This document shows positions 39,519 to 52,160 of a stretch of DNA of 64,000 nt, one piece after another. The translations under genes and the position numbers were made by a program. The stretch comes from Acutalibacteraceae bacterium (GTDB lineage Bacteria; Bacillota; Clostridia; Oscillospirales; Acutalibacteraceae). Location of the stretch: contig JAZNGF010000035.1 of NCBI GenBank assembly GCA_045576295.1, positions 58-64,057 on the forward strand. Reading direction: 5' to 3'. Every line of letters begins with the position of its first letter. Within the stretch, counting starts at the first letter, position 1. The notes under the pieces were generated by a model that had not been told where the DNA came from, made no database searches, and saw only the letters and a list, made by a program, of their open reading frames with translations.

Positions 39519-39547
39519 TTGAAAAAGCGCGTAATATGAGGTATAAT
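39519..39547 (+). promoter_or_regulatory. Putative promoter of the zinc-ribbon/acyl-transfer operon
   Basis: TTGAAA (39519-39524), a 17-nt spacer, TATAAT (39542-39547). Confidence 0.55.
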
Positions 39548-39579: not shown

Positions 39580-40254
39580 ATGTATACTTGTTCAAAATGT
39601 AATTTTAAAACCGAAACTGCTATAAATTATTGCCCGCAGTGCGGCGGCGGAATGTTGTTTGTTAAACCTATGGTTCAAAAGCCGGCTGAACCCACCTTCG
39701 CGCAGCCTGTACAGCAAAATGTTCAACCACCTGTTCAGCCACAGCCTGCAAATCAAGCATACACTACACAAAGCGCACCCGCTGAGCCTATGCATAATCA
39801 ATATAATACACAGGGTTATAGCCAGCCCACCGCGCAATTTCAGGCTGAACCTACATACGCACCGCCTTCTGCGCCGCAACAAAATCAATACAACGCATAT
39901 AATTCGCATAATTATTCGGCTCAAAACAATAATTTCTACCAGCCCGTTAACGAGCCAAAGGTTTCGGTGGGCCGCAAAATCGCCGGCATGGTTCTTTCGA
40001 TTATCGGTGCTGCTTTCGCGTTCTTTACCTTCATTGGCACATTAGATTCAATGGGCTACGAAGATGCATTCGACGGCGCCTTTATTTTAACACTTTTATT
40101 CGGCGCGCTTCCTATTATTGGGCTTGTGCTTTCAAACAAATGCCGAAACGACGGCGACACATCGCCCATTTCCAAGGTTGGTAAAATCCTTGGCATAGTG
40201 GGCCTTGCGTTGTTTGGTTTAAGCCTGTTCTTTGGTTTTGTTAGTTTAGCCTAA
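39580..40254 (+). CDS. Zinc-ribbon membrane protein, paralog 1 (long Q/P-rich linker)
   Basis: N-terminal CxxC-x13-CxxC (MYTCSKCNF...NYCPQCGG), a Q/P/A/Y-rich low-complexity linker, and about 3 TM helices with the conserved LSNKCRNDGD loop. Confidence 0.8.
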   Translation: MYTCSKCNFKTETAINYCPQCGGGMLFVKPMVQKPAEPTFAQPVQQNVQPPVQPQPANQAYTTQSAPAEPMHNQYNTQGYSQPTAQFQAEPTYAPPSAPQQNQYNAYNSHNYSAQNNNFYQPVNEPKVSVGRKIAGMVLSIIGAAFAFFTFIGTLDSMGYEDAFDGAFILTLLFGALPIIGLVLSNKCRNDGDTSPISKVGKILGIVGLALFGLSLFFGFVSLA

Positions 40255-40313
40255 TACGCTTGATTGGTTTAATTTATTTAATTGAATTTAGAATTTAAAA
40301 AGGTGGAATTATT

Positions 40314-40838
40314 ATGTATACTTGTTCAAAATGTGATTTTAAAACTGAAACCGCTATAAATTATTGCCCCGAGTGCGGCGGCACAATGGTTTATGTTCAG
40401 CCAGCAGCGCAGCAATCGGCCGAACCCACCTATGCACCGCCCACTTACTCGCAACCTGCTTACACACAGCATAGTTCTAACACCTATGCACCTTATCAAG
40501 ATGTGTATACTACACCCACCGCACCCAAAAAACCGCACTTAGCATTTAAAATTGTTTCAATGGCTTTATCTATTGGCGGCTTTGTTCTTGCTCTTGTTAC
40601 TTTCTTTTACACACTTTTCGGCCTAATTGAGCCACCCGTTGCGTTTGTTTTTTCATTTATTTTTTCAATTTTCTATTCGCCGCTTTCGATTGTTGGCCTT
40701 ATTCTTTCAAACAAATGCCAAAACGCAGGCGATAACTCGGCCTTTTCGAAGGTTGGCAAAATTTTAGGGCTTATTGGCGTTATTATTTATGGCGTTAGCC
40801 TGTTTATCGGCGTTATGTCGCTTGGTGCAGGTTTTTAA
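40314..40838 (+). CDS. Zinc-ribbon membrane protein, paralog 2
   Basis: Same architecture. The 5' end is nearly identical to paralog 1, and the 3' end is nearly identical to paralog 3. Confidence 0.8.
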   Translation: MYTCSKCDFKTETAINYCPECGGTMVYVQPAAQQSAEPTYAPPTYSQPAYTQHSSNTYAPYQDVYTTPTAPKKPHLAFKIVSMALSIGGFVLALVTFFYTLFGLIEPPVAFVFSFIFSIFYSPLSIVGLILSNKCQNAGDNSAFSKVGKILGLIGVIIYGVSLFIGVMSLGAGF

Positions 40839-40856
40839 TTCAAATTTATAGTTTTG
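40721..40856 (+). repeat. Direct repeat unit A (3' end of paralog 2 plus 18 nt of downstream flank)
   Basis: Aligns without gaps to 41222-41357. I count 4 mismatches in 136 nt. Confidence 0.9.
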
Positions 40857-40895
40857 GTTAGTTAAATAAAGCACTTCTCGAAAGGGGCAACTACT

Positions 40896-41339
40896 GTGTA
40901 TACTTGTTCAAAATGCGGTTTTACAAACAATTCTGAATTGAATTTTTGCCCCATGTGCGGAGCACAGGTTGTTTCGAAACAAAACACGACCGAGCAACCT
41001 ATTGAGTCGGCAAGTGGCACTACCGTTAAAAAGCCGCATCTTGCATTTAAAATTATCTCAATGGTTTTATCTATTGAGGGTTTTTATGCAGCTTATGTAA
41101 CCTTAATATTAACACTTGTGGGCCTTATTCAACAGCCGTTTTCTTTCGAATTTTCAGTTGGTTTTTCGTTATTCTATGCGCCACTTTCGGTTGTTGGACT
41201 TATATTTTCAAATAAATGCCGAAACGCAGGCGATAACTTAGCCTTTTCGAAGGTTGGCAAAATTTTAGGGCTTATTGGCATTATTCTTTATGGCGTTAGC
41301 CTGTTTATCGGCGTTATGTCGCTTGGTGCAGGTTTTTAA
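40896..41339 (+). CDS. Zinc-ribbon membrane protein, paralog 3 (GTG start, short linker)
   Basis: MYTCSKCGF...NFCPMCG and the same C-terminal TM module ending GVMSLGAGF. Confidence 0.78.
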   Translation: MYTCSKCGFTNNSELNFCPMCGAQVVSKQNTTEQPIESASGTTVKKPHLAFKIISMVLSIEGFYAAYVTLILTLVGLIQQPFSFEFSVGFSLFYAPLSVVGLIFSNKCRNAGDNLAFSKVGKILGLIGIILYGVSLFIGVMSLGAGF

Positions 41340-41357
41340 TTCAAATTTATAGTTTTG
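41222..41357 (+). repeat. Direct repeat unit B (3' end of paralog 3 plus 18 nt of downstream flank)
   Basis: See 40721-40856. The offset is exactly 501 nt. Confidence 0.9.
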
Positions 41358-41367
41358 TGAGGCCGAT

Positions 41368-43281
41368 ATGAACAAAAACCTTAAAAAAGTTATTTCTTAT
41401 AATCGCGATGCGCTTGTTAATTCGCAAAAAAATCTTAGCGATATTTTTAAAGTTATGTTCCACTGCGAAGATAATATTTTATGCGAATATAACGATGGTT
41501 TTAGAATTAAAAAAGAAACCTACCGCGATGTTTTAAAAAAAATTGAAACTGCTGCTTCGGGGCTTTACCAAAAAATCGGCGCAACACATAGCTACATAGC
41601 CCTTGCAATAGATAATTCACCCGAATGGATAGTTGCGTTTTGGGCTATTTTAAAAAGCGGCAACAAACCCTACCTTGTTAACCTGCGTTACCCCGATTCG
41701 TTAACTAATGGGATTTTAAAAACGCTTAACATTAAATATGCCGTTTGCTCGGCAGAAACGTCTTTAAATGCCGAAGATATTCTTGTTTCTTCGCTAAGTG
41801 GCGATGTTTCGGTGCCCGAAGGCGAATTTGAAAACGAAATTGCCTTTTCATCATCGGCAACCTCAATGAACGAGGTGGTTTGCTTTTACACAGGGCAACA
41901 AATAGCCGAACAGATTTTAAACTTTGAAGATATTATTAAGTTAGAACCACGCATGATAAAGCATTATAAAGGCTATTTAAAGCAGCTTGCTTTCTTGCCG
42001 TTTTACCATGTGTTTGGGCTTTTTGCGGTTTATTTTTGGTTCACCTTTTTTGGAAGAACGCTGGTGTTCCTGCGTGATTACTCGGCAGATACTATTCTTA
42101 AAACCTGCCGCAAGCACTGCGTTACTCATATTTTTGCGGTGCCCGTTTTATGGCACACTGTTGAAGCCGGCATAATTGCCGCCGCAAAAGACGGAGGCGA
42201 AAAGAAATATAATAAACTTATGCGCGCCATTAAGTTTACAACCGCAATTCAAAACATTTTCCCAAGTTTTGGCCCCGAAATTGCAAAGAAAATCACAAGC
42301 GAGGTTACCGAAAAGGTTTTTGGTAAATCGGTTATGTTTTGCATAAACGGCGGAAGCTACCTTAAAGACAGCACGCTGAAACTTTTAAACGGCATTGGTT
42401 ACAGCACCTATAACGGCTACGGAATGAGCGAAATAGGAATAACCTCGGTTGAGCTTGGAAGAAAGGCAAAACAGCGCAACCTTAATTCTATCGGCAGGCC
42501 GTTTACATCGGTTGAATATAAAATAGATAACAACGGCATTTTGCTTGTTAAGGGCAGTTCGCTATGTGTTAGAAAATTAGTGAACGGCGAAGAACAAAAA
42601 ATCGGCGGCTGGTTCTACACCGGCGATAAAATGGAATGCCGAAACGGCGACTATTACATCCTTGGCCGACTTGGCGATATGGTTATTGGTGAAAACGGCG
42701 AAAACATTAATCCCGACAGCATTGAAAAGTTAATAACCGTGCCCGACGCGAGCGCATTTTCGGTTTTAGGGATGGATGGCGAAAACGGGCAGGAATTATC
42801 GATAGTTGTTCAGGTTAATAATTTTATTTCTGACAATAAACTTTCTAAAATTCGAAACGATATTTACGAAATTAACGATACGCTCCCCAAAGCCACCGCA
42901 ATTAAAAAGTTCTATTTTACAACCGACAATCTGTGCCCGCCAAATGCCATTAAGGTTAGCCGTGCACAGCTTGTTAAAAAAATAAATAATGGAGAAATTA
43001 AACTTACATTATTCGCAGATATGAAGGCAAATGCCGGCAGCGGCGAAGATTCACCCCTTACCGAAAAGGTTAAAGAAATCGTTGCCGAAGCACTTGCTAT
43101 GAACCCCGCCGATGTTAGCAGCACCGCCCACATTTTCTACGACCTTGGCGCAACAAGCATTCAATACTTTTCAATCATTGCAAGCCTTTCAAAAGAGTTT
43201 GAAGTTCCCGATTACCAGCAAGATGATAAGTATTGCTACACGGTTAAAGACATTTGCGAATATTTAGAAAAACGTATTTAG
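41368..43281 (+). CDS. Adenylate-forming (ANL superfamily) enzyme with fused C-terminal carrier-protein domain
   Basis: ANL core motifs are present: YGMSEIG, GWFYTGDK, GENINPDSIE. The C-terminal ~75 aa resemble a PCP/ACP, with DLGATSIQYF as the putative phosphopantetheine serine. The canonical P-loop appears degenerate (SSSATSMNEVV). Confidence 0.75.
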   Translation: MNKNLKKVISYNRDALVNSQKNLSDIFKVMFHCEDNILCEYNDGFRIKKETYRDVLKKIETAASGLYQKIGATHSYIALAIDNSPEWIVAFWAILKSGNKPYLVNLRYPDSLTNGILKTLNIKYAVCSAETSLNAEDILVSSLSGDVSVPEGEFENEIAFSSSATSMNEVVCFYTGQQIAEQILNFEDIIKLEPRMIKHYKGYLKQLAFLPFYHVFGLFAVYFWFTFFGRTLVFLRDYSADTILKTCRKHCVTHIFAVPVLWHTVEAGIIAAAKDGGEKKYNKLMRAIKFTTAIQNIFPSFGPEIAKKITSEVTEKVFGKSVMFCINGGSYLKDSTLKLLNGIGYSTYNGYGMSEIGITSVELGRKAKQRNLNSIGRPFTSVEYKIDNNGILLVKGSSLCVRKLVNGEEQKIGGWFYTGDKMECRNGDYYILGRLGDMVIGENGENINPDSIEKLITVPDASAFSVLGMDGENGQELSIVVQVNNFISDNKLSKIRNDIYEINDTLPKATAIKKFYFTTDNLCPPNAIKVSRAQLVKKINNGEIKLTLFADMKANAGSGEDSPLTEKVKEIVAEALAMNPADVSSTAHIFYDLGATSIQYFSIIASLSKEFEVPDYQQDDKYCYTVKDICEYLEKRI

Positions 43282-43282
43282 T

Positions 43283-44566
43283 ATGAAGAATAAATGGTTT
43301 GTTAGATTTTTTCTTATAATTACAAAGCTTACAGGATTTATACCTACACTTATATTTTTTAAGCCTAAAGTGTATACTGAAGATGGGGCAAAAAGGCGCT
43401 TGCCTAAAAATTGCATTTTGGTTTCTAACCATAAATCAATTTTCGATTTTGCTTTATACCTTATTATATTCCCCTTTAGAACTATACACTTTTTAATGGC
43501 CGAAGTGCTTTATAACAAAAGCAAGTTTTTTGCATTTTTGCTTAATTCCTGGGGCGGAATAAGGGTTGAGCGCGACGCTCACGATTTTTCCTTTGTTTCT
43601 GAATCTATTGAAGTTTTAGATAGAGGCGGCATAGTTGGCATTTTCCCCGAAGGCAGGCTACCCGTTAATAACAAGCCCTGGCCCTTTACAACAAGTACCG
43701 CTTTTATTGCCATACATTCAGATGCACCCATTGTTCCCATTTACACAAACGGCAATTATGGCCTTTTCAAGCGAGCAAAGGTGTGCATAGGAAAGCCTTT
43801 TTATGTTTCAGATTATTATAAAGAAGGCCTTGAAGAGAAAGACCAAATCAAGCACCTTACCGAACTCACCGAAAAAAAGGTGTATGACCTTAAGAACACA
43901 ATCGAAAATGCCGACAAACTGCACAGTTTTTTTAGTTTTAAGCATTTTCCAATGGATATGGCGCGATTGGTTTGCAGCGTTCTCCCACCTATTCTTCGCA
44001 TTAGGCGCCTAACACCGGGCGGCGAAAAATACAAAAACAAATTAAAGGGCGGTGCCATTATTACCGCCAATCACACTTCGTTTATCGACCCGTTTTTGGT
44101 TGGCGTTACCTTTTGGTACAGAAGGCTTTACTTTTTAGCCGCTGAAACGGTTATGAAGGGTAAACTGCGCTCGCTTTTATTAAAGGGAATCGGTTCAATT
44201 AAGATTGACCGCCAGGCGGCCGACATTGAAGCAATAAACAAATCGGTTGAAAAGCTTAAAAAAGGTTACCTTTTAGCCGTTTTCCCGCAGGGTGGAATTA
44301 AAAAAGACGATAACGTTGAATCGGTAAAATCGGGCGCGATTCTTATGGCTATTCGAGCAGGCGTGCCCATTGTTCCAATGCACATTGCCCCGCGCAAGCA
44401 CTGGTATAACAAACGCAACGTAATTATTGGCAAAACCATTAACCCAAAAGAATTTTGCAAGGGTAAATTCCCCAGCACAACTGATATTAAAAACATAACC
44501 GATGCACTAATTTTCGAACTTAAAAGGTGCAAATCGGCAAGTGATGCCACATTATCGGAGGAATAA
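43283..44566 (+). CDS. Tandem PlsC-type (LPLAT) acyltransferase, two catalytic domains
   Basis: Two HX4D motifs (NHKSIFD and NHTSFID), each followed by an FPEG-type block (FPEGR, FPQGG). There is an N-terminal membrane anchor. Confidence 0.8.
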   Translation: MKNKWFVRFFLIITKLTGFIPTLIFFKPKVYTEDGAKRRLPKNCILVSNHKSIFDFALYLIIFPFRTIHFLMAEVLYNKSKFFAFLLNSWGGIRVERDAHDFSFVSESIEVLDRGGIVGIFPEGRLPVNNKPWPFTTSTAFIAIHSDAPIVPIYTNGNYGLFKRAKVCIGKPFYVSDYYKEGLEEKDQIKHLTELTEKKVYDLKNTIENADKLHSFFSFKHFPMDMARLVCSVLPPILRIRRLTPGGEKYKNKLKGGAIITANHTSFIDPFLVGVTFWYRRLYFLAAETVMKGKLRSLLLKGIGSIKIDRQAADIEAINKSVEKLKKGYLLAVFPQGGIKKDDNVESVKSGAILMAIRAGVPIVPMHIAPRKHWYNKRNVIIGKTINPKEFCKGKFPSTTDIKNITDALIFELKRCKSASDATLSEE

Positions 44567-44568
44567 TA

Positions 44569-44808
44569 ATGAACACATTTGAAAGATTATTAAATGTTTG
44601 CACTGCCGTTTTTGAAGGCGATATTGACACATCTGCAATTAAACCCGAAGCAAGGCTTCGCGAAGATATTAATATTAACTCAATTGGCATTTTGTATATG
44701 GCGTTGGCCATTGAAGAAGAATTCGGCATTAAATTCACTAACGAAGACTTCACCGATATTACCACCGTTAACGATGTTATTGCCATAATTGAAAAGAAGG
44801 TTTCATAA
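44569..44808 (+). CDS. Stand-alone acyl carrier protein
   Basis: A 79-aa acidic four-helix-type protein with DININSIGILYMALAIEEEFGI (Ser in a DxxS-like context). It starts 2 nt after the upstream gene. Confidence 0.7.
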   Translation: MNTFERLLNVCTAVFEGDIDTSAIKPEARLREDININSIGILYMALAIEEEFGIKFTNEDFTDITTVNDVIAIIEKKVS

Positions 44809-45212
44809 TGGAGTGGACTGTTAACACCCCAGAGCCTGCCCAAATAATCAGAACCAAGGTTAGCTTTTATTATCATTATGGCATTTTTATTAGCGAAGAC
44901 GAGGTTATTCAGTTCGGCCTGCCCGATGACCCGGGCAAGCCTGCAGAACAAATAAAGGTGCTTTCAACCGACATTTACACTTTTTTGGGCGGTGGCGAGC
45001 TTGAAACTGCGGCACCAAGCAGCAGCGAAAGAAAGCGTATGAGAAGCCCGGAAGATATAATAAAAATCGCCCGCTCACGAATCGGAGAGGGCGGATACGA
45101 CATTCTTCACAATAACTGCGAACACTTTGTGAACGAGTGCGTTTTTGGCGAAAGCAGTTCATCGTTCCTGAACAGTGTGCGCGATAAAATTCGAAAAAAA
45201 TTAAACAAATAG
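44808..45212 (+). CDS. LRAT/PLAAT-like (NlpC/P60 superfamily) thiol acyltransferase/phospholipase
   Basis: A 134-aa ORF with a His in HYGIFIS and the NCEHFVNEC catalytic-cysteine motif. The ATG overlaps the ACP stop. Confidence 0.7.
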   Translation: MEWTVNTPEPAQIIRTKVSFYYHYGIFISEDEVIQFGLPDDPGKPAEQIKVLSTDIYTFLGGGELETAAPSSSERKRMRSPEDIIKIARSRIGEGGYDILHNNCEHFVNECVFGESSSSFLNSVRDKIRKKLNK

Positions 45213-45268
45213 CGCGTTTGCGTTTTATGGCGAGCGCGCAACATTTTTATCATGTTTTGCGGCAAAAG

Positions 45269-45817
45269 TTATATTATAGTGATAATATAATCGCCGCTTA
45301 TAAAGACCTGCTTTTTAAGCGAAAGGGTTTCTATTGGCCGAAGGCCGGCAACATCGCCGCCCTTTTTAAAACGGGCTTCCTTTGCTGTCCACACTTTGAA
45401 AAATCTGCGGTTAACATCATCAGGTTCGTTATTTTTAAGCACATATTCCCTTTCGCTTTCTGTGCAAACATATTCAACTAATTTTCGGCTAACGGGCCGT
45501 ATTTTTTCTATATCTATGCCTATGGGCTCGGCGCTTATTGCGCACGCAACCATATCGAAGCTGTGAGAAATGCTCACAAACAAATTGCAGCCTTTTAAAT
45601 AAGGCTTCCCATTCTCGTGCATTTCGATGGGCACGCTTCTGCCAAGTTCTTTTAAAACAAGCTGGTTTAAAAGGTGGGTTGCCATTAGCGAACACCTGCG
45701 TGCTTCTTCTTTTTTCATTCTGTCGATATGTGCTTTTCTTGAAGGCGAAAGCGAAGCATACACGGCGCTATACTGCTCGGCAGTTAAGTTGGTAGTTTGG
45801 CCTGTTAACCAGTTCAA
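45269..45817 (-). CDS. Sfp-type 4'-phosphopantetheinyl transferase
   Basis: A 182-aa ORF with the motifs SISHS, GIDIE and WTAKEARFK. Confidence 0.85.
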   Translation of the reverse strand: MNWLTGQTTNLTAEQYSAVYASLSPSRKAHIDRMKKEEARRCSLMATHLLNQLVLKELGRSVPIEMHENGKPYLKGCNLFVSISHSFDMVACAISAEPIGIDIEKIRPVSRKLVEYVCTESEREYVLKNNEPDDVNRRFFKVWTAKEARFKKGGDVAGLRPIETLSLKKQVFISGDYIITII

Positions 45818-45870: not shown

Positions 45871-46524
45871 GTGAAGGTTATGTGGATTTTCCTTGGTATA
45901 CTCGCATTTATAGTTATTCTTATTACTGTAATTTTGCTGTTGCCGGTTTATATTATATTTAAATCAGACGATGACGGCGAGTTAATGATTAGGTATAAAA
46001 TACTGTTCAAAACCTTTGGCGAAGACCCAGACCCTAACCAGCCCATTGTTAAAGCATTAAAAGAAATTTCGGGTGTTTCAAGGCTTAGCAAAGAAAAGCT
46101 TCAAAAAAGCGCAAAAGCAAGCAGTTGGTTTGAAACCTTAAAAGACAGTTTTTCGCTCATAGTGGGGCTGTTAAAAAGGTTGCTTGCACTGGTTAAAATT
46201 TGCAAAATAAAGGTTTTGCGCATTAACATTGTTTGCGCCGAAGGCGAACCCGACAAAACCGCAATTAACTATGGAACCTGCTATGCGGTTATTTCGCCTA
46301 TTTTGAACTTTTTGCATTCTTCAATGAAGGTTAGAAGCCGCGGTGAAAGCATTAATATTTCCTGCGACTTCGAAAGCAGCGAAAGCTCTTATGACTATGA
46401 AGTTGTTTTAACCATTCCGTTTTACAAGGTTGTTGATGCTCTTTTACGCGCCGCGTTTGATGAAGCAAAGCGAATATCAAAAAAGAACACCCAGAGAATT
46501 ATTTCGAATAAAAATCGAAAGTGA
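45871..46524 (+). CDS. DUF2953-like membrane-anchored protein
   Basis: A 217-aa ORF with an N-terminal TM helix and a repetitive beta-rich body. Family name is from memory. The start is GTG 45871 or ATG 45880. Confidence 0.5.
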   Translation: MKVMWIFLGILAFIVILITVILLLPVYIIFKSDDDGELMIRYKILFKTFGEDPDPNQPIVKALKEISGVSRLSKEKLQKSAKASSWFETLKDSFSLIVGLLKRLLALVKICKIKVLRINIVCAEGEPDKTAINYGTCYAVISPILNFLHSSMKVRSRGESINISCDFESSESSYDYEVVLTIPFYKVVDALLRAAFDEAKRISKKNTQRIISNKNRK

Positions 46525-47476
46525 GATTTACTATTTTTGTTAATGTTTCATTGTTGCTGGCTAAAAGCGCATGTGTTTCGTTTTCTATATTAACTAAACG
46601 GCAACCGCTGTATTTTTCGGCAAACTTATAATGAAGTTCATTGTTTACCACTGTATCATTTCCGGCCGAAATTAAAAGAATGGGCGTTTTTATATTATTT
46701 ATAACCTTTTTACTTAAAATTTTGCGGCCGATATTAATGGAATTATCGGTCCAGCTAAAACTCATTGGGGTTGACCTGTAGTTGAGGTTATCTATTCTCA
46801 TTTTAAGGTTATATTCAAACCTTACCCTGCTTGAACCGTGAGATTCCTTATACTGCACATTAGGGTTAAACTCGTGAGATAACGGGAATTTTTTTTTCTT
46901 ACCTAAAAACAGTTTGCCCATTTTAACGCCACCGCGTGCTATCGGCATGGGAACACAATCAACTATTGGCTCGAACATAGGTGCCGCAAGAACTGCACGT
47001 TTTATTTTGTTTGGGTGTTGCGATAAATAGAATGTGCTTATTGCGCCACCCATTGAATGTGAATATAAATATAGCGGCTTGTCTTCGGTTTTTAGAACAA
47101 TGTCATCAACAAACTGCGCCAAATCGCGAACGTAGTCGTTAAATTTATCAACGTGAAGCAAATCCATTTCCTTGGTTAATCTTCCCGAAAGGCCATGGCA
47201 ACGCTGATCGTAAATAAACACATTAAACCCGCGGTTTAAAAGGTAATAGGCAAACTCATAAAACTTTTTTGTGAATTCGCTTAGCCCGTGAACTATAACA
47301 ACCGAGGCTGTGCTGTTTTCGGCCAAAAAGTATTCGTAATACATATTAGTACCGTCAAAAGCCTTAAAGTTTCCGCTAACCTTAATTTCTTCGAGCTTTT
47401 GCTCAATATCTTTAATGGCTGTAGGAAACTCCTCTTCGGGAATAACACTGAACTTGTAACTGGGAATAAACTTCAT
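46499..47476 (-). CDS. Alpha/beta hydrolase (lysophospholipase/monoacylglycerol-lipase-like)
   Basis: HGLSEF oxyanion region and nucleophile elbow SHSMGG. The 3' end overlaps the convergent gene by 26 nt. Confidence 0.8.
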   Translation of the reverse strand: MKFIPSYKFSVIPEEEFPTAIKDIEQKLEEIKVSGNFKAFDGTNMYYEYFLAENSTASVVIVHGLSEFTKKFYEFAYYLLNRGFNVFIYDQRCHGLSGRLTKEMDLLHVDKFNDYVRDLAQFVDDIVLKTEDKPLYLYSHSMGGAISTFYLSQHPNKIKRAVLAAPMFEPIVDCVPMPIARGGVKMGKLFLGKKKKFPLSHEFNPNVQYKESHGSSRVRFEYNLKMRIDNLNYRSTPMSFSWTDNSINIGRKILSKKVINNIKTPILLISAGNDTVVNNELHYKFAEKYSGCRLVNIENETHALLASNNETLTKIVNLTFDFYSK

Positions 47477-47519
47477 TTTTCTCTCCTTTGCTTAAAAAAA
47501 CAAAAAAATGGTGATAATA

Positions 47520-48464
47520 ATGATATCAAACAAAAAAATTAAAAAGGTACTGATAACCATTATTATTGCTGTTTTATTATTTACCGCCGTTTCATTTACC
47601 GCAACAAAAATTATATACGATAACATTTTTTCGCGTTATGATTGCGGCGTAACTTCTTATTCAAGCGAGCTTGAACAAACCGTTGCCCTGCGCAAAAGTG
47701 TGAGCTACCCTTCGGGCGAAAACACCCTTTTAGCTTATTTATACGAAAGCACCGCCGAAAACCGTAAAGACACGCTTATTGTGTTAGCGCCGGGGCACAA
47801 CGCCTGCTCTGACAGTTATTTGTGGCAAATACAAGAGCTTTTGGCCTATGGATGGTCGGTTTTTGCTTTTGATGCAACCGGTTGCTGCCGCTCGGGCGGC
47901 GATTCATCGGTTGGGTTTCCGCAAGAGGTGCTTGATTTAAAATCTACACTTGAATATCTTGAAAAAAACAATAAATTGAATTATAATAATATTGCCCTGC
48001 TTGGGCATAGCTGCGGCGGATATGCGGCCTGTTGCAGCCTTGCCTACGGTTATGATGTTGCGGCCGTTGTTTCGGTTAGCGGCATTAACAGCGCAATGGA
48101 GGGCGTTATTGGCACAAGCACACAGTATGTTGGCAACTTGGCCTACGGTAATTACGGGTTTTTGTGGCTCTATCAAGCCATGCTGTTTGGAAGCAGCACC
48201 GTAAACCTTCGCGCCGATAAGGTTTTATCATCAACCGATGTTCCCGTTTTACTTATACACGGTGAAGGCGATAAACAGGTTCCAATTGATAAATATTCTA
48301 TTATTTCGCATAAAGCCGAAATAAAGAATAAAAACGCTGAGTATTTTGTGCGTAATTCGCCCGATAATTCAGGGCATACAAACCTACTTTTTTCAAAAGA
48401 CGGCACAGCCGACGATGAAGTGATTGAGAAGATTAATGATTTTTTAATAAAAAACATTAAATAG
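47520..48464 (+). CDS. Membrane-anchored alpha/beta hydrolase
   Basis: N-terminal TM helix and nucleophile elbow GHSCGG. ATG 47520 is preferred (GGTGA RBS). Confidence 0.75.
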   Translation: MISNKKIKKVLITIIIAVLLFTAVSFTATKIIYDNIFSRYDCGVTSYSSELEQTVALRKSVSYPSGENTLLAYLYESTAENRKDTLIVLAPGHNACSDSYLWQIQELLAYGWSVFAFDATGCCRSGGDSSVGFPQEVLDLKSTLEYLEKNNKLNYNNIALLGHSCGGYAACCSLAYGYDVAAVVSVSGINSAMEGVIGTSTQYVGNLAYGNYGFLWLYQAMLFGSSTVNLRADKVLSSTDVPVLLIHGEGDKQVPIDKYSIISHKAEIKNKNAEYFVRNSPDNSGHTNLLFSKDGTADDEVIEKINDFLIKNIK

Positions 48465-48481
48465 GGATGGAGGGGCCCCTA

Positions 48482-49504
48482 ATGGATGTGATTCTGATAC
48501 CGGCGTATGAGCCCGGCGAAGAACTAATTGGGCTTGTTAACGAGCTTAGAAAAAATGATTTTGAAATAGTTGTGGTTAACGACGGCAGCGGAAAAGACTA
48601 TACCCATATTTTTGAAGCTGTAAGCGTTAGCGCACATATAGTAACACTTGAAACCAACAGCGGCAAAGGCGCGGCACTGAAAGCCGGCATGCGCTATATA
48701 AAAGATAGCCTTCCTGAATGCGAAAACTTTATAACCTGCGATGCCGACGGCCAGCACCTGCCAAAAGATGTTGTTCGCGTTAGCGAGCAACTACATAAAG
48801 GAAGCAAGTTTGTTTTAACCGTTAGGCAGCGAAAAGGTAAAATCCCGCTACGCTCACGATTCGGCAACGACCTTTCGAAGTTTGTTTACACATTGCTAAC
48901 CAACCGCTATTTATCAGATAATCAATCGGGGCTTCGCGGTTTTGCCCGCAGCAACCTTGATTGGCTTATAAAGGTTGAAAAAAACAACTACGATTATGAA
49001 ATGAACGTTTTATATTATGCCGCTAAAATGGGGCTTAAAATCACAACACTTACTATCGATGCCATATACATTGAAAACAACGCTTCATCACACTTCAACC
49101 CCATTGGAGATACACTTAAAATTTATAAAAGCCTGTTTTCATTAGCGCGCGCAACATTTCTTTCGCTTTTAACGGCCGAGCTTTTAATACTTATTGCATC
49201 ACTGTTTTTAAATAACCGTTACATAAACATCGTTATTCCATCGGTTGGTGCGATTTCGTTGTTTACCTATATTATACTTAATAAATTTGTTTTCTTTAAG
49301 CATATATCGGTGGGCGAATACCTTACCACCACAGGGTATACAATAATTTATTATTTTGTATACACACTGCTTTGCCATTTATGCACGTTTATATTCCCTA
49401 ACATTTCACTGTTTATTAACTTCAATCTGGTGTTTTTAATTTGCTTGCCGTTAAGGTATTTCTTGCACCAGCTATTATTTATAGCATCTGTAACAAGAGA
49501 ATAA
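48482..49504 (+). CDS. Family-2 glycosyltransferase fused to a C-terminal polytopic membrane domain
   Basis: GT-A N-terminus (ILIPAYEP, VVVNDGS, CDADGQH). The C-terminal ~120 aa are hydrophobic and GtrA-like. ATG 48482 lies behind GGAGGGG. Confidence 0.8.
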   Translation: MDVILIPAYEPGEELIGLVNELRKNDFEIVVVNDGSGKDYTHIFEAVSVSAHIVTLETNSGKGAALKAGMRYIKDSLPECENFITCDADGQHLPKDVVRVSEQLHKGSKFVLTVRQRKGKIPLRSRFGNDLSKFVYTLLTNRYLSDNQSGLRGFARSNLDWLIKVEKNNYDYEMNVLYYAAKMGLKITTLTIDAIYIENNASSHFNPIGDTLKIYKSLFSLARATFLSLLTAELLILIASLFLNNRYINIVIPSVGAISLFTYIILNKFVFFKHISVGEYLTTTGYTIIYYFVYTLLCHLCTFIFPNISLFINFNLVFLICLPLRYFLHQLLFIASVTRE

Positions 49505-49510
49505 TAATAT

Positions 49511-49546
49511 AAAGACAAACTTAAAACGTTTGTCTTTATTTTTTTA
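49511..49546. terminator. Bidirectional terminator between the GT2 gene and plsX
   Basis: AAAGACAAAC-ttaaaac-GTTTGTCTTT followed by ATTTTTTT. Confidence 0.8.
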
Positions 49547-50521
49547 GTTCGATAATATATTTGACATTTCGGCAGAAAAACCTGCCTTTTCTAAGCGCAA
49601 AATCTGCTCAACCGATGCAAAGGTTGTATCGGCATTTGCGCAGCCGTGCATTTTAACAACAATTTTTTTAGTACCTAAAAATGTTGCCGCACCGCGAGAA
49701 TTGAAATCGAAAAAGCCGAGCAAGGCTGCCCTTGCCTTTTGGATAAGCTCGGGGTGGCCGCTTAACACGCTTTCAACAATTTCTAATGCTTTTTTGCCCG
49801 AGGCTTCGGTGTTTTTAAGAAGTATATTGCCCGAAAAACCATCGGTAACTACAACATCGGCATAGCTCGAAACCATATCGCTGCCCTCAAGGTTGCCTAT
49901 AAAGTTAATATCAAGCTCCTTAAGTTTGCCAAAGGCTTCGGTTGTTAAGGCGTTGCCTTTTGAATCTTCCCGCCCTACCGACATCAAACCAATGCGGGGG
50001 CTTTCTATCCCACAATAGCATTTTGCAAAAACATGGCCCATTTTTGCAAAGCGCACCAAATCGTTAGCGGTGCAATCAATTACTGCTCCGCAATCAACAA
50101 GGCAAAGAAGATTATCTTCTTTGCAGGGAAGCGCACTGCAAAGAGAGGGGAATTTAACCGAAGGCAAAAGCCCTAAACGGCAGATTGACCCAACAAGCAC
50201 AGCACCTGTGTTTCCTGCCGAAAGCATTGCAATGCAGTCGCTGTCTTCTTTAAGTTTTTTATATGCCAAGGCAATTGAGCTTTCGTCTCTTCCACCAAAT
50301 ATAACCGTTGCGGGTTCGTTGTTGGTTATAAAATCGGTTGTGTGGATGATTTCATACCTGCTTTGCGAAATGCCGCAAGCATCCATTCCCTGCTTTATAA
50401 GTTCGCTATCGCCAACCATTACAGGGAAAATATCAAGCTCTTTCACAGCTTTTGCAATGCCTGTAATCACCACGTCGGTGCCGGCATCTGCACCATAAAT
50501 ATCAACAACAATTTTTTTCAT
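49544..50521 (-). CDS. plsX: Phosphate acyltransferase PlsX
   Basis: Internal start MKKIVVDIYGADAG. The PlsX pattern is present throughout (SAGNTGA, VVKMHGCANA). Confidence 0.92.
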   Translation of the reverse strand: MKKIVVDIYGADAGTDVVITGIAKAVKELDIFPVMVGDSELIKQGMDACGISQSRYEIIHTTDFITNNEPATVIFGGRDESSIALAYKKLKEDSDCIAMLSAGNTGAVLVGSICRLGLLPSVKFPSLCSALPCKEDNLLCLVDCGAVIDCTANDLVRFAKMGHVFAKCYCGIESPRIGLMSVGREDSKGNALTTEAFGKLKELDINFIGNLEGSDMVSSYADVVVTDGFSGNILLKNTEASGKKALEIVESVLSGHPELIQKARAALLGFFDFNSRGAATFLGTKKIVVKMHGCANADTTFASVEQILRLEKAGFSAEMSNILSN

Positions 50522-50528
50522 ACGGCAC

Positions 50529-52160
50529 CTATTCCATAGAAATAATATAATCGTATATGTCTTGCTTGCCTTCGATAAACCCAACATCAGTAAGCGGGTA
50601 TTCGTTTTCAATGTGTTCTTTTAAACTATCTGCTTCTTGTTCACTAACATTTTTGCCATAGAAAACAATTATAACCGCCTTTTCATCTTCAGCCATAATT
50701 TGGTCAATCAAATTGGTTGCGGCTTCAAATCTATCACTGCAAGAAAGCAAAATATCTTTGTTTTTAATACCTAAATATTCGCCCTGTTTAATTTCAACAT
50801 CGCCAATATTAGCATCTCTTGTTGCGGTGGTAACGCTGGCAGAAACAACCGTTTCAAGCCCTGAAGACATATCTTCAATAAGGGTTTCAACGCTGTCGCT
50901 CCAAAGGTCCATCATTGAAATGGCACTGTAGCCCTCAACAATTGATTTTGTTGGTATAACGTGAACAGGGGTGTCTTTATAAATTTGAGCAACCTGATTA
51001 GCGGTTAAAATAATATTAGAATTATTCGGAAGCAACACAATATGCTCGGCTTCGAATGCTTCAAATGCTTTTAAGAAATCCTCAACCGAGGGGTTGTTGG
51101 TTTGGCCGCCGTTAATAACCGCGGTTGCACCAATGCTGTAAAAGTAATCAATGATTCCCTCACCCGAAGCCACGGTTACAATTGCATATTTAACCTTTTC
51201 TTTTTTAACTTCGGTTTGAATTTCGCTATGCTGAACCGACATATTTTCTATTTTTAAGGTAACAAATTCGCCATAATTTCTGGCATAGGCCAACACCTTT
51301 TCGGGTGTGAAGGTGTGAATATGTACCTTTACGATTCCGCCGCTTACTGCTGCTACAATCGAATCGCCCATGGCCTCAAGCGGTTTTACAAAATCGTCTC
51401 TTGAAAAGGCGCTAATATCGGTTTTGGCATTCATTAATTGAAGTATGAATTCTGTGCAATAGCCGTATTCCATAACACTATCGGGCCCGAAGTTTGCGCT
51501 GCCATTCGGCTTGAAGGCCGAAAAATCAATCTCGCCAACATCTTCGATTGAAACACCGCAAAAATATGCATGCATACCCTCAAAAAAGCAGATAAAACCT
51601 GCCGCACCGCTATCAACTACTCCCGCTTCTTTTAAAACGGGTAGCATATCGGGTGTTCTTGCAAGGGTGTCTTTCATACATTTAATTAGCGCTTCTATCC
51701 CCGATTTAAAATCGTCATATTTATTGGCATTATTATCTAAAAACTCGGCAGCTTCACGAATAACGGTTAATATTGTTCCTTCGGTTGGCGTAATGATCGA
51801 CTTATATGCGTCTTCCTTAGCGCATTCGAACGAAAGCTTTAAATCGTTAAAGCAAATTTTATCTTTGCCTTCCAATCCTCGCGCAAGCCCACCAACAAAC
51901 TGCGAAAATATAACACCGGAATTTCCCCTGGCGCTAAGCAAAACGGCCTGCGAAAGCTCCCTCATATATTCACCAACATTATTTTGCGGTGTAACAGAAG
52001 CAAGGCCGCCGCCAAAGGTGTGAACCATGTTTGTTCCCGTGTCTCCATCCGGAACGGGGAATACATTCAGGTCGTTAATTGCCGACATATTCTTTTTAAG
52101 GTTTCGATATCCAACGGTAAATATGTAATTAAGCGTTATACCGTCAATATAGTTTTGCAT
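50529..52160 (-). CDS. fakA: Fatty acid kinase catalytic subunit (DAK2/DhaL-domain protein, YloV/FakA type)
   Basis: A 543-aa ORF with the DhaL motif (NVFPVPDGDTGTNM) and the FakA-type length and architecture. It ends 7 nt before plsX. Confidence 0.85.
   Translation of the reverse strand: MQNYIDGITLNYIFTVGYRNLKKNMSAINDLNVFPVPDGDTGTNMVHTFGGGLASVTPQNNVGEYMRELSQAVLLSARGNSGVIFSQFVGGLARGLEGKDKICFNDLKLSFECAKEDAYKSIITPTEGTILTVIREAAEFLDNNANKYDDFKSGIEALIKCMKDTLARTPDMLPVLKEAGVVDSGAAGFICFFEGMHAYFCGVSIEDVGEIDFSAFKPNGSANFGPDSVMEYGYCTEFILQLMNAKTDISAFSRDDFVKPLEAMGDSIVAAVSGGIVKVHIHTFTPEKVLAYARNYGEFVTLKIENMSVQHSEIQTEVKKEKVKYAIVTVASGEGIIDYFYSIGATAVINGGQTNNPSVEDFLKAFEAFEAEHIVLLPNNSNIILTANQVAQIYKDTPVHVIPTKSIVEGYSAISMMDLWSDSVETLIEDMSSGLETVVSASVTTATRDANIGDVEIKQGEYLGIKNKDILLSCSDRFEAATNLIDQIMAEDEKAVIIVFYGKNVSEQEADSLKEHIENEYPLTDVGFIEGKQDIYDYIISME

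What the first reader, a model, noticed from the sequence alone, without database searches (positions are those of the whole stretch)
39580..45817. Operon coupling three zinc-ribbon membrane paralogs to a carrier-protein-dependent acyl-transfer set (ANL enzyme-CP fusion, double PlsC, ACP, LRAT-like) plus a convergent PPTase
- Seven genes sit behind one promoter (39519-39547) with no internal terminator that I can see. The last four have tight or overlapping junctions (1-nt gap at 43281/43283, 2-nt gap at 44566/44569, 1-nt overlap at 44808).
- The set contains two carrier domains (one fused, one free), two HX4D acyltransferase domains in one polypeptide, an adenylating enzyme, a Cys-His LRAT/PLAAT-type enzyme and a dedicated Sfp-type PPTase.
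- There is no ketosynthase, condensation or thioesterase domain. It therefore looks like activation of a pre-made (fatty) acid and its transfer to two acceptor positions, i.e. synthesis or remodelling of an unusual acylated lipid or lipidated product.
- It resembles a split and expanded version of the Aas (acyl-ACP synthetase / 2-acyl-GPE acyltransferase) logic. I do not recognise the combination with an LRAT-like protein and Zn-ribbon membrane proteins as a described pathway.
- A speculative possibility is that the Zn-ribbon proteins, with their conserved LSNKC(R/Q)N(A/D)GD cytoplasmic loop, are partners or substrates.
Basis: inference. Interest (0 to 1): 0.7.

Follow-up and report, generated by a model that had tools for sequence, protein, structure and literature searches.

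The report
Carrier-protein lipid acylation module beside Fak/PlsX
This is a real, widely conserved but uncharacterised gene set in gut Firmicutes that probably attaches scavenged fatty acids to two positions of a membrane-lipid backbone, and it almost always sits next to the known fatty-acid uptake genes fakA, fakB and plsX.

Summary

- **Conserved core.** The core is ANL-carrier fusion, then tandem PlsC-type acyltransferase (often two genes), then ACP, then an LRAT/PLAAT-like Cys-His enzyme. In 80 species-level genomes of Clostridia and Bacilli (including cultured Anaeroplasma bactoclasticum), the ANL-CP gene lies upstream in 69/69 loci. ACP is present in 74/78 and LRAT in 62/72.
- **Fusions.** Fusion proteins tie the parts together: ANL-CP-AT-AT, AT2-ACP and LRAT-AT1-AT2.
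The module is almost always within 10 kb of plsX-fakA-degV-degV (32/34 full-flank loci). In this window those genes lie at 49.5-54.0 kb. In Bacilli-type genomes everything forms one operon.
- **Variants.** The variants not linked to fak/plsX carry a second, canonical ANL enzyme. Several variants embed an MFS_2 transporter, and one type also a patatin phospholipase.
- **Zn-ribbon proteins.** They are module-specific but restricted to some lineages (35/63 loci), and their motif cysteine is not conserved.

Best reading: an Aas/LplT-like system in Gram-positive bacteria that salvages or remodels exogenous lipid and depends on carrier proteins. No description was found in four literature searches. 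The acceptor lipid, the acid substrate and the LRAT role remain inferred. I rate it a new variant of a known kind, interest about 0.62.

The parts
39519..39547 (+). sigma-70-type promoter-like site (TTGAAA-17-TATAAT)
   Evidence: Scores 11 of 12, one of the two top-scoring matches in 39000-50000. Sequence read. A consensus match only; not tested.
39580..40254 (+). Zn-ribbon/3-TM membrane protein, paralog A (224 aa)
   Evidence: ORF. N-terminal CxxC...CxxC, a P/Q-rich linker and 3 hydrophobic helices. No Pfam family for the membrane part.
40314..40838 (+). Zn-ribbon/3-TM membrane protein, paralog B (174 aa)
   Evidence: Of the 13 homologs found by sequence alone, those whose context is known lie in this module, directly upstream of ANL-CP.
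40896..41339 (+). Zn-ribbon/3-TM membrane protein, paralog C (147 aa)
   Evidence: Sub-threshold Pfam hits to DZR, Zn_Ribbon_1 and Zn_ribbon_3. 55% identical to paralog B.
41368..43281 (+). ANL (AMP-binding) enzyme fused to an ACP-like carrier domain (637 aa), with a non-canonical P-loop
   Evidence: Pfam AMP-binding 8.6e-31 plus PP-binding 1.4e-6. The carrier domain resembles FAS-type ACPs. Motifs A5, A7, A8 and the A10 Lys are conserved, but motif A3 reads SSSATSMNEVV. The family has 327 clusters at 50% identity with E<=1e-30.
43283..44566 (+). Tandem PlsC/LPLAT acyltransferase (AT1 residues 1-213, AT2 residues 214-427)
   Evidence: PF01553, two stretches. Both HX4D motifs (H50/D55, H264/D269) and both FPxG motifs are invariant in 18 diverse homologs. 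AlphaFold2 model has mean pLDDT 85, and the best fold match is T. maritima PlsC 5kym. AT1 and AT2 are separate old lineages. The protein is split into two genes in 43/80 genomes.
44569..44808 (+). Free acyl carrier protein (79 aa), below the curated AcpP cut-offs
   Evidence: PP-binding 4.2e-8. NCBIfam ACP models score 41.7-50.9 bits against cut-offs of 70-71. Present downstream of the acyltransferase in 74/78 loci. Fused to AT2 in P0083/L006.
44808..45212 (+). LRAT/PLAAT-like Cys-His enzyme (134 aa), soluble
   Evidence: PF04970 6.3e-19. Aligns to human PLAAT2/3/4 structures. His23 and the NCEHF Cys104 are invariant in 71/71 homologs. Present in 62/72 loci. Fused to AT1-AT2 in P0101/P0102.
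45212..45239 (.). Terminator-like hairpin between the convergent genes
   Evidence: 10-bp stem with 7 GC pairs, followed by a T-run. Sequence read.
45269..45817 (-). Sfp-type 4'-phosphopantetheinyl transferase (182 aa)
   Evidence: ACPS 1.8e-12, with AASDHPPT_N below its cut-off. Closest NCBIfam models are AusB, AcpT and HetI, all sub-threshold. Linked in 30/54 loci. Lies directly upstream and co-directional in Anaeroplasma-type loci.
45871..46524 (+). DUF2953-like membrane protein; syntenic, role unknown
   Evidence: Weak Pfam hit. Syntenic only in Oscillospirales relatives.
46499..47476 (-). Lysophospholipase-L2-like alpha/beta hydrolase
   Evidence: Hydrolase_4 1.6e-41. NCBIfam lysophospholipase L2 2.1e-43, sub-threshold. 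Travels with the next two genes as a trio.
47508..48464 (+). Alpha/beta hydrolase with an N-terminal membrane helix
   Evidence: Conserved trio.
48467..49504 (+). GT2 glycosyltransferase with C-terminal membrane helices
   Evidence: Glycos_transf_2 2.1e-14. Conserved trio.
49544..50611 (-). PlsX (acyl-ACP:phosphate transacylase)
   Evidence: FA_synthesis 8.6e-69. Linked to the module in 31/34 full-flank loci.
50529..52160 (-). FakA (fatty acid kinase, ATP-binding subunit)
   Evidence: Dak2, FakA-like_M and FakA-like_C domains. Linked in 32/34 full-flank loci.
52164..53051 (-). DegV/FakB fatty-acid-binding protein 1
   Evidence: DegV 9.1e-52.
53067..54023 (-). DegV/FakB fatty-acid-binding protein 2
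   Evidence: DegV 1.4e-50.
54090..55109 (+). Alpha/beta hydrolase divergent from degV, conserved next to the locus
   Evidence: Hydrolase_4 and Abhydrolase_1. Homologs flank the fak genes, or lie directly upstream of ANL-CP, in most loci.

Best explanation
The region is one arm of a conserved chromosomal locus for salvaging or remodelling exogenous lipid, found in gut Firmicutes.

**Proposed working** (established for the families = E; inferred here = I).
1. FakB/DegV proteins bind free fatty acids and FakA phosphorylates them (E).
2. PlsX interconverts acyl-phosphate and acyl-ACP (E). The free 79-aa ACP is its dedicated partner (I).
3. The PPTase makes both carriers holo (I).
4. The ANL-CP protein activates a carboxylic acid, most likely a fatty acid, and parks it on its own carrier arm (I).
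5. The tandem acyltransferase uses the two carrier-bound acyl groups to esterify two positions of a glycerol-based acceptor. The pairing is AT1 with ANL-CP and AT2 with the free ACP. The acceptor would be a lysophospholipid, a glycerophosphodiester or G3P (I).
6. The LRAT/PLAAT-like enzyme forms an acyl-Cys intermediate. It either makes the lyso-acceptor (phospholipase A action) or moves or hydrolyses acyl groups on the carrier thioesters (I, least certain).
7. The Zn-ribbon membrane proteins are lineage-specific membrane partners (I).

Functionally it works like the Gram-negative LplT/Aas lysophospholipid re-acylation system, but it is built from different, split parts.
For: **Conserved gene order.** In 80 species-level genomes, ANL-CP lies upstream of the acyltransferase in 69/69 loci, ACP is present in 74/78 and LRAT in 62/72.

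**Fusion proteins.**
- ANL-CP-AT-AT in one polypeptide (P0376).
- AT2-ACP (P0083/L006).
- LRAT-AT1-AT2 (P0101).

**Catalytic residues.**
- Both HX4D motifs are invariant.
- AT1 and AT2 are distinct old lineages.
- The model shows two LPLAT folds.
- The LRAT His and Cys are invariant.

**Link to fak/plsX.**
- FakA lies within 10 kb in 32/34 full-flank loci, including this window.
- In Bacilli-type genomes the genes form one co-directional operon, degV-fakA-plsX-...-ANLCP-PlsC2-ACP(-LRAT).

**Complementary distribution.**
- The loci with a second, canonical ANL gene between AT2 and ACP are the ones with no fakA or plsX nearby.
- Fisher's exact test gives p about 9e-5, not corrected for phylogeny.
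- This fits the free ACP being loaded either by ANL2 or by Fak/PlsX.

**Other lipid genes in the module.**
- MFS_2 transporters are embedded in 8 loci of 3-4 arrangements, three of them also with a patatin phospholipase.
- A lipid kinase (DAGK_cat) follows the module in L002.

**Similarity to Aas.** Both AT halves match the acyltransferase domain of Aas-type models.

**Precedents in the literature.** LplT/Aas (PMC11416262) and AcpB beside plsX in E. faecalis (PMC6509188).
Against: - No biochemical or genetic data exist for any member.
- The ANL substrate is unknown. The closest solved structures by sequence are aryl-acid ligases (4-chlorobenzoate CoA ligase, MenE), matched only over the conserved C-terminal core.
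- The ANL P-loop is non-canonical in this lineage, so ATP-dependent adenylation is not assured.
- The acceptor lipid is unknown.
- This window has no MFS_2 transporter inside the module.
- The LRAT-like gene is missing from about 14% of loci, and the free ACP is missing from Anaeroplasma-type loci. Neither is therefore indispensable.
- Gene linkage to fak/plsX could partly reflect shared ancestry of chromosome organisation, not function.
- All matches to Aas and PlsC equivalog models are far below the curated cut-offs.
Confidence: 0.55

Rival explanations
1. This is the housekeeping route to phosphatidic acid. AT1 acts as a G3P acyltransferase and AT2 as an LPA acyltransferase, replacing or duplicating PlsY and PlsC. 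The cluster ACP and PPTase are the cell's main acyl carrier system.
For: - In Bacilli-type genomes the module sits where acpP and other phospholipid-synthesis genes usually follow plsX.
- The whole protein passes the TIGR00530 AGP_acyltrn domain cut-off (117 against 102.95 bits).
- Fold matches include both PlsC and GPATs.
- No other PlsC or PlsY gene is present in this 64-kb window.
Against: - The pattern scan found the module in only 230 of 185,579 species genomes (a lower bound). That is not the distribution expected of an essential core pathway.
- The ACP scores below the AcpP cut-offs.
- An ANL-CP fusion and a PLAAT-like enzyme are not needed for de novo PA synthesis.
- Variants carry lysolipid-type transporters and phospholipases.
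Confidence: 0.15
2. The module makes a specialised, non-standard acylated product. Candidates are an acylated glycolipid or LTA anchor, an N-acyl or triacylated phospholipid, or a lipidated protein. The LRAT-like enzyme would be a third acyltransferase that uses acyl-carrier thioesters.
For: - Three potential acyl-transfer catalysts and two carriers are present.
- A GT2 glycosyltransferase and hydrolases are syntenic.
- PLAAT enzymes carry out N- and O-acyl transfer through an acyl-Cys intermediate (established family knowledge).
- Papain-fold enzymes that use acyl-ACP donors exist, for example BtrH, mentioned in PMC10318531.
- ANL-CP relatives are fused to an aminotransferase class I/II domain (Pfam Aminotran_1_2) in other pathways (P0332).
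Against: - The GT2/hydrolase trio separates from the core in Lachnospiraceae and other loci.
- The LRAT gene is dispensable in 10/72 loci.
- Nothing in the locus specifies an unusual head group.
- The strongest and most universal linkage is to the ordinary Fak/PlsX pathway.
Confidence: 0.17
3. The Zn-ribbon membrane proteins are the substrates, S- or O-acylated on the conserved cytoplasmic loop, and the enzymes form a protein-lipidation system.
For: - Zn-ribbon genes lie directly upstream of ANL-CP, in the same orientation and with short gaps, in 35/63 loci.
- In L087 the gene overlaps the start of the ANL-CP gene.
- Homologs found by sequence alone lie in the module wherever context is known.
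- The loop between the last two helices is the best-conserved part of the protein.
Against: - The Cys of LSNKC is replaced by A, S, N or G in many homologs.
- The genes are absent from 28/63 loci that keep the full enzyme set.
- PlsC-type enzymes are not known to acylate proteins (family knowledge).
Confidence: 0.05
4. This is an NRPS-like secondary-metabolite cluster on a mobile island.
For: It contains an A-T-like didomain, a free carrier and an Sfp-type PPTase.
Against: - No C, KS, TE or reductase domain is present.
- The chromosomal context is housekeeping: ribosomal proteins, nusG, the pyr operon, uvrB and parB/gidB.
- GC content does not depart from the surroundings.
- Synteny is conserved across families.
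Confidence: 0.03

Closest known systems
E. coli Aas with LplT (2-acyl-GPE acyltransferase/acyl-ACP synthetase plus lysophospholipid flippase; PMC11416262)
   Same: - An ANL enzyme makes a carrier-bound acyl group that a PlsC-type HX4D acyltransferase puts onto a lysolipid.
- Both AT halves match the acyltransferase domain of Aas-type models such as PRK08633.
- Some variants embed an MFS transporter, and one relative fuses ANL-CP-AT-AT.
   Different: - Here the carrier is covalently fused to the ANL enzyme, and a second free ACP is present.
- There are two acyltransferase domains, not one.
- The parts are split over several genes.
- A PLAAT-like enzyme, a PPTase and Zn-ribbon proteins are added.
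- The transporter, where present, is MFS_2 type.
- The hosts are Gram-positive.
- Scores are far below the Aas equivalog cut-offs.
FakAB-PlsX-PlsY/PlsC exogenous fatty acid pathway of Firmicutes, and the auxiliary ACP AcpB beside plsX in E. faecalis (PMC6509188, PMC10146087)
   Same: - The module is physically linked to fakA, two degV genes and plsX.
- A non-housekeeping ACP encoded close to plsX is a known theme.
   Different: The described pathway has no ANL-CP fusion, tandem acyltransferase or LRAT-like protein.
Mammalian PLAAT/HRASLS and LRAT enzymes (PDB 4fa0, 4dot, 7zom, 2kyt)
   Same: - Matches Pfam LRAT.
- Carries the NCEHF catalytic Cys and the His23 equivalent.
- Aligns over the whole soluble domain.
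   Different: - It has no C-terminal membrane anchor.
- The third catalytic His is Gln in 62/71 homologs.
- Its gene overlaps the ACP gene by one nucleotide (TAATG junction), and in some relatives it is fused to LPLAT domains.
ANL-ACP didomain loaders and Myxococcus ElbD (ANL-ACP-reductase-AGPAT); recalled from memory, not tested here
   Same: A fatty-acid-activating domain, a fused carrier and a PlsC-type acyltransferase act in one pathway.
   Different: There is no reductase or other tailoring domain, and the setting is primary lipid metabolism.
GPC double-acylation pathway of mitis-group streptococci and Xanthomonas (PMC6805115)
   Same: Scavenged glycerophosphodiester or lysolipid is acylated twice. 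That paper states that the transporters and acyltransferases of the pathway in streptococci still need to be identified.
   Different: There is no evidence here for choline lipids. The link is an analogy only.

Membership tests
Aas (bifunctional acyl-ACP synthetase / acyl-[ACP]-phospholipid O-acyltransferase) | Score at or above the NCBIfam equivalog cut-off (PRK08633, PRK08043, PRK06814) | tested here: not met
   Scores of 99.1, 59.9 and 51.4 bits against cut-offs of 1221, 886 and 1349. Only the acyltransferase domain aligns.
Aas | PlsC-type HX4D acyltransferase domain and ANL domain in one polypeptide, using non-covalently bound AcpP | tested here: not met
   They are separate genes in the window. 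The carrier is fused to the ANL enzyme. A fused ANL-CP-AT-AT relative exists (P0376).
Aas | Partner MFS lysophospholipid transporter (LplT) | tested here: not met
   The window's module has none. MFS_2 transporters are embedded in 8 variant loci.
PlsC/LPLAT (AGPAT) superfamily | Pfam PF01553 or TIGR00530 above cut-off | tested here: met
   PF01553 scores 135.4 bits against a cut-off of 23. TIGR00530 scores 117 against 102.95 for the whole protein. Each half alone scores 49.1 and 71.3, below the cut-off.
PlsC/LPLAT superfamily | Catalytic HX4D (motif I) and FPEG-type motif III in each domain | tested here: met
   H50/D55, H264/D269, F121/P122 and F334/P335/G337 are invariant in 18 diverse homologs.
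PlsC/LPLAT superfamily | LPLAT fold | tested here: met
   AlphaFold2 model with mean pLDDT 85. Foldseek top hits are 5kym (PlsC, E 7.5e-9), then GPAT1, PatA, squash GPAT and LpxM.
PlsC (LPA acyltransferase, equivalog) | Acceptor is 1-acyl-G3P | not testable with these tools
   PRK15018 scores 32.9 bits against a cut-off of 501. Acceptor specificity needs an enzyme assay.
LRAT/PLAAT (PF04970) | Pfam score above cut-off | tested here: met
   68.9 bits against 24.3. phmmer hits to PLAAT2/3/4 and LRAT-chimera structures.
LRAT/PLAAT | Catalytic Cys in NCEHF and the first His | tested here: met
   Cys104 and His23 are invariant in 71/71 homologs.
LRAT/PLAAT | Second His of the Cys-His-His triad (PLAAT3 His35) | tested here: not met
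   Gln in the window protein and in 62/71 homologs; His in 6/71.
LRAT/PLAAT | C-terminal membrane anchor | tested here: not met
   The protein ends about 30 residues after the catalytic Cys with a charged tail.
ANL superfamily (PF00501) | Pfam score above cut-off and core motifs A5, A7, A8 and the A10 Lys | tested here: met
   107.5 bits against 29.9. GYGMSE, T418/D420, G433/R434 and K529 are conserved in 72 homologs.
ANL superfamily | Canonical A3 P-loop ([ST][ST]G[ST][ST]GxPKG) | tested here: not met
   The window has SSSATSMNEVV. The loop is degenerate in 84 of 143 family representatives and near-canonical in the ANL2-carrying variants.
Carrier proteins (PF00550) | Pfam score above cut-off and a conserved phosphopantetheine-attachment Ser | tested here: met
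   28.9 and 33.8 bits against 20.8. S597 of DLGATS is conserved. Holo formation was not tested.
Housekeeping AcpP | NCBIfam ACP equivalog cut-off | tested here: not met
   TIGR00517 scores 41.7 against 70.45, and PRK00982.1-2 scores 50.9 against 71.
Sfp-type PPTase | ACPS domain plus the N-terminal pseudo-repeat domain | tested here: inconclusive
   ACPS scores 47.7 against 25, which is met. AASDHPPT_N scores 22.8 against 27, which is below the cut-off.
FakA / FakB / PlsX | Pfam domains above cut-off | tested here: met
   Dak2, FakA-like_M, FakA-like_C, DegV (twice) and FA_synthesis are all well above their cut-offs.
NRPS/PKS biosynthetic cluster | Condensation, ketosynthase, thioesterase or reductase domain | tested here: not met
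   No such domain in any gene from 39.5 to 55.1 kb.

The most novel reading that the evidence does not exclude
The module is the missing Gram-positive counterpart of LplT/Aas and of the bacterial glycerophosphodiester/lysolipid double-acylation route, and it contains two unprecedented steps.
1. A PLAAT/LRAT-type Cys enzyme works on acyl-carrier-protein thioesters, not only on phospholipids.
2. In the Fak/PlsX-linked lineages, an ANL-carrier fusion whose ATP-phosphate-binding loop has diverged no longer adenylates with ATP. It takes its acyl group from Fak-made acyl-phosphate or through PlsX.
Probability: 0.15. Interest if true: 0.85.

Novelty: new variant of a known kind. Interest (0 to 1): 0.62.

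Why it matters
**How gut anaerobes build membranes.**
- Many gut anaerobes and wall-less Bacilli build membranes from host and dietary lipids.
- In Firmicutes the only described entry route is FakAB-PlsX-PlsY/PlsC. Lysophospholipid re-acylation (LplT/Aas) is described as a Gram-negative system (PMC11416262).
- This module is found in at least 230 species and is welded to the fak/plsX genes. It would add an ATP- or acyl-phosphate-driven, carrier-protein-dependent branch with two dedicated acyltransferases.

**Open questions it could address.**
- It offers candidate genes for bacterial double acylation of scavenged glycerophosphodiesters and lysolipids, whose enzymes are unknown (PMC6805115).
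- It gives the first operon context for a bacterial PLAAT/LRAT homolog.

**Practical relevance.**
- Fatty-acid salvage lets bacteria bypass FASII inhibitors.
- The membrane lipids of gut commensals are seen by the host.
- A cultured carrier, Anaeroplasma bactoclasticum ATCC 27112, makes the system testable.

Tried and rejected
**Searches that failed or found nothing**
- The genome scan with the 18-sequence alignment A1 failed because no stretch was conserved enough. I repeated it with the 8-sequence alignment A2.
- Four literature searches for the module or for bacterial LRAT operons returned nothing relevant. One search was rejected for syntax.
- The exact cluster look-up gave no names or accessions for the window proteins.
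- The LRAT homolog search listed only close relatives, so it gave no information on distant architectures.
- Pfam at E up to 10 on the membrane halves of the Zn-ribbon proteins gave only noise, such as MpPF26 at E 0.009-0.05.
- Rfam found no riboswitch or leader near the cluster.

**Ideas considered and rejected or downgraded**
- NRPS-like secondary metabolism: rejected, because there are no C, KS or TE domains and the context is housekeeping.
- A mobile island: rejected, because GC content does not depart from the surroundings and synteny is conserved.
- S-acylation of the LSNKC cysteine: rejected, because the Cys is not conserved.
- Membership of the LysoPL-hydrolase-GT2 trio in the core: rejected, because it sits about 8 kb away in L035, L037, L043 and L080.
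- A strong form of the acyl-phosphate hypothesis for ANL-CP: downgraded. The P-loop divergence is graded across the wider family, and Lys is often retained.

**Could not be tested**
- Whether the host genomes also carry plsY, plsC, acpP or FASII.

Full report

Yes. The six-frame ORF list reproduces every coordinate and junction in the finding.
- There are three small paralogous genes at 39580-40254, 40314-40838 and 40896-41339.
- They are followed by 41368-43281, 43283-44566, 44569-44808 and 44808-45212 on the + strand, and by a convergent gene at 45269-45817.
- The last four + strand genes are separated by a 1-nt gap, a 2-nt gap and a 1-nt TAATG overlap.

Pfam and NCBIfam confirm the domain calls.
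- 637-aa protein: AMP-binding (8.6e-31) plus PP-binding.
- 427-aa protein: two PF01553 acyltransferase stretches.
- 79-aa protein: PP-binding.
- 134-aa protein: LRAT (6.3e-19).
- 182-aa protein: an ACPS-type PPTase.
- No ketosynthase, condensation, thioesterase or reductase domain appears anywhere.

The signals also hold up.
- The promoter-like site at 39519-39547 is one of the two top-scoring matches in 11 kb, at 11 of 12.
- A GC-rich hairpin with a T-run at 45212-45239 separates the convergent genes.
- The window is ordinary chromosome: rplJ/rplA with an L10 leader, nusG, secE, rpsB, tsf, the pyr operon, uvrB, parB and gidB. GC content does not shift at the cluster.

**2. Is the gene set conserved?**

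The tandem acyltransferase has 214 detectable relatives at 90% clustering, almost all from gut metagenomes. A pattern scan of one genome per species found relatives in 230 genomes, and I examined the best 80 loci. They come from Acutalibacteraceae, Oscillospiraceae, Faecousia, Ruminococcus, Lachnospiraceae, Erysipelotrichaceae, Acholeplasmatales and uncultured Bacilli. One is the cultured Anaeroplasma bactoclasticum ATCC 27112.

I searched the window proteins against six-frame ORFs of these loci.

| Feature | Loci with it / loci with enough flank |
|---|---|
| ANL-CP directly upstream of the acyltransferase | 69/69 |
| ACP downstream | 74/78 |
| LRAT-like gene downstream | 62/72 |
| PPTase nearby | 30/54 |
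| Zn-ribbon membrane gene upstream | 35/63 |
| Acyltransferase split into two adjacent genes | 43/80 |

- In Anaeroplasma-type loci the PPTase lies directly upstream and co-directional.
- Metagenome contigs carrying homologs of 29-41% identity show the same core.

Fusion proteins tie the parts together.
- ANL-CP-AT-AT occurs as one 1101-aa protein (P0376).
- AT2 is fused to ACP (P0083).
- LRAT is fused to AT1-AT2 (P0101 and P0102).

The would-refute condition 'genes do not co-occur' is therefore not met.

**3.

The core is almost always within 10 kb of plsX, fakA and two degV (fakB) genes, plus a conserved alpha/beta hydrolase. FakA is present in 32 of the 34 loci that have 9 kb or more on both sides.

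In this window the linked genes are:
- plsX at 49544-50611
- fakA at 50529-52160
- degV at 52164-53051 and 53067-54023
- the hydrolase at 54090-55109

Between these genes and the core lie a DUF2953-like gene, a lysophospholipase-L2-like hydrolase, another membrane-anchored hydrolase and a GT2 glycosyltransferase. That hydrolase-hydrolase-GT2 trio is conserved but separates from the core in some lineages.

In Bacilli-type genomes everything is one co-directional operon, for example degV-fakA-plsX-(Zn-ribbon or PPTase)-ANLCP-AT1AT2-ACP(-LRAT). In L045, L048 and L049 a patatin phospholipase and an MFS_2 transporter sit between fakA and plsX.

**4. Variants that inform mechanism**

- Six loci (L002, L003, L004, L047, L083, L088) carry a second ANL gene of about 500 aa between AT2 and the ACP.
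  - It has a canonical P-loop and is FadD-like (5e-57).
  - These are exactly the loci with no fakA or plsX in the 5-10 kb of flank held.
  - They include both exceptions among the full-flank loci. Fisher's exact test gives p about 9e-5, uncorrected for relatedness, and the loci probably represent about two clades.
  - The simplest reading is that the free ACP is charged either by ANL2 or by Fak/PlsX.
- The AT2-ACP fusion pairs the free ACP with AT2. ANL-CP abuts AT1.
- AT1 and AT2 are distinct old lineages: 34 of 36 halves have a nearest neighbour of their own type.
- Both HX4D motifs and both FPxG motifs are invariant.
- The AlphaFold2 model (mean pLDDT 85) shows two LPLAT folds whose best match is T. 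maritima PlsC. GPAT1, PatA, plant GPAT and LpxM follow.
- MFS_2 transporters are embedded in eight loci of three or four different arrangements.

**5. The individual proteins**

*LRAT-like protein.*
- It aligns over its whole length to human PLAAT3, PLAAT2 and PLAAT4.
- His23 and the NCEHF cysteine are invariant in 71 homologs.
- The second triad histidine is Gln in 62 of them.
- There is no membrane anchor.

*ANL-CP.*
- It keeps motifs A5, A7, A8 and the A10 lysine, and the carrier serine.
- Its A3 P-loop reads SSSATSMNEVV instead of the canonical SSGTTGxPKG type.
- In the ANL2-carrying variants that are not linked to fak, the ANL-CP P-loop is close to canonical.
- Across 143 family representatives the divergence is graded: 84 degenerate and 59 canonical-like, often with the Lys retained.
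- I therefore treat loss of ATP use as a low-probability idea that can be tested.

*Carriers.* The fused carrier and the free ACP resemble FAS-type ACPs but fall below the AcpP cut-offs.

*Zn-ribbon proteins.*
- They share CxxC...CxxC, a low-complexity linker, three helices and a conserved loop (S.K..N.GD.S..S[KR]..GK).
- The cysteine of LSNKC is not conserved.
- Of the 13 homologs found by sequence alone, those whose context is known sit directly upstream of ANL-CP.
- Many loci with the full enzyme set lack them.

**6. Most likely mechanism**

The locus handles exogenous lipid.
1. Fak and PlsX provide acyl-phosphate and acyl-ACP. This is established for those families.
2. ANL-CP provides a second acyl group held on its own carrier arm.
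3. The two acyltransferase domains esterify two positions of a glycerol-based acceptor.
4. The PLAAT-like enzyme either generates lyso-acceptors or edits and moves carrier-bound acyl groups.
5. The hydrolases, and in some variants patatin and MFS_2, supply substrates.

Steps 2-5 are inferred from architecture, fusions and linkage, not shown.

The rivals are housekeeping PA synthesis, a specialised acylated product, protein lipidation of the Zn-ribbon proteins, and an NRPS-like metabolite. I rank them lower for the reasons given under each.

**7. Comparison with known systems**

The module works like LplT/Aas (PMC11416262) but is not a member of that family.
- Scores are far below the equivalog cut-offs.
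- The architecture is split.
- The carrier is fused, and there are two acyltransferase domains.

It overlaps conceptually with FakAB-PlsX and with the auxiliary ACP AcpB beside plsX (PMC6509188). Four literature searches found no description of this combination or of a bacterial LRAT operon.

**8. Verdict**

This is a real and strongly conserved module. It is an uncharacterised new variant of acyl-carrier-dependent lipid acylation, with several unusual parts. It matters for how gut Firmicutes and Mollicutes-like bacteria use host and dietary lipids.

Noticed in passing
window 41368-43281, residues 158-174 of the protein: The ANL-CP P-loop (motif A3) reads SSSATSMNEVV instead of the canonical SSGTTGxPKG type, while motifs A5, A7, A8 and A10 are conserved. 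The degenerate form is found in the fak/plsX-linked loci, and a near-canonical form in the ANL2-carrying variants.
   Followed up: yes
window 49544-55109: plsX, fakA, two degV/fakB genes and a divergent alpha/beta hydrolase lie just outside the finding's coordinates. They turn out to be the most conserved neighbours of the module.
   Followed up: yes
window 49544-50611 and 50529-52160 (- strand): The mechanical plsX ORF (TTG start) overlaps the end of fakA by about 80 nt. The true plsX start is probably further downstream, because the Pfam match begins at residue 33.
   Followed up: no
window 11195-12058, 12151-12894, 14323-15012, 16522-17706: A second group of lipid-related genes lies 25 kb upstream: a patatin-like phospholipase, an alpha/beta serine hydrolase, a weak GDSL-lipase-like ORF and an MFS transporter. 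In other genomes, patatin and an MFS_2 transporter sit inside the module.
   Followed up: partly
L045 4855-7111, L047 7518-9416, L088 10848-12802, L005 2077-4044: MFS_2 transporters are embedded in module variants. They occur with patatin in three loci and with an extra ANL-CP and a single PlsC in two. These may be lysolipid transporters analogous to LplT.
   Followed up: partly
protein P0332 (1087 aa, metagenomic): A 34%-identical relative of ANL-CP is fused to a class I/II aminotransferase domain. This suggests the same loader family feeds a different kind of downstream reaction in other pathways.
   Followed up: no
window 45871-46524: A DUF2953-like membrane protein is conserved between the PPTase and the lysophospholipase-like gene in Oscillospirales relatives. 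Its function is unknown and it may be unrelated to lipid metabolism.
   Followed up: no
L075 (Anaeroplasma bactoclasticum), L058, L061: In these loci the order is fakA-PPTase-ANLCP-AT1AT2-LRAT. No plsX and no free ACP was detected within the locus, so the PPTase occupies the position plsX has in related Bacilli.
   Followed up: partly
window 960-1105, 9562-9741, 17914-17997: An L10 ribosomal leader lies upstream of rplJ. tRNA-Thr, tRNA-Tyr and tRNA-Leu genes are also present. All are ordinary.
   Followed up: no
window 3018-3710 (- strand): The ORF containing SecE is 230 aa, but the SecE domain occupies only its last 55 residues. This is either an upstream false start or an unusual N-terminal extension.
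   Followed up: no
window 29564-30034: A small HTH plus nucleotidyltransferase (Pol-beta type) protein follows the pyr operon. It may be a toxin-antitoxin-type element.
   Followed up: no
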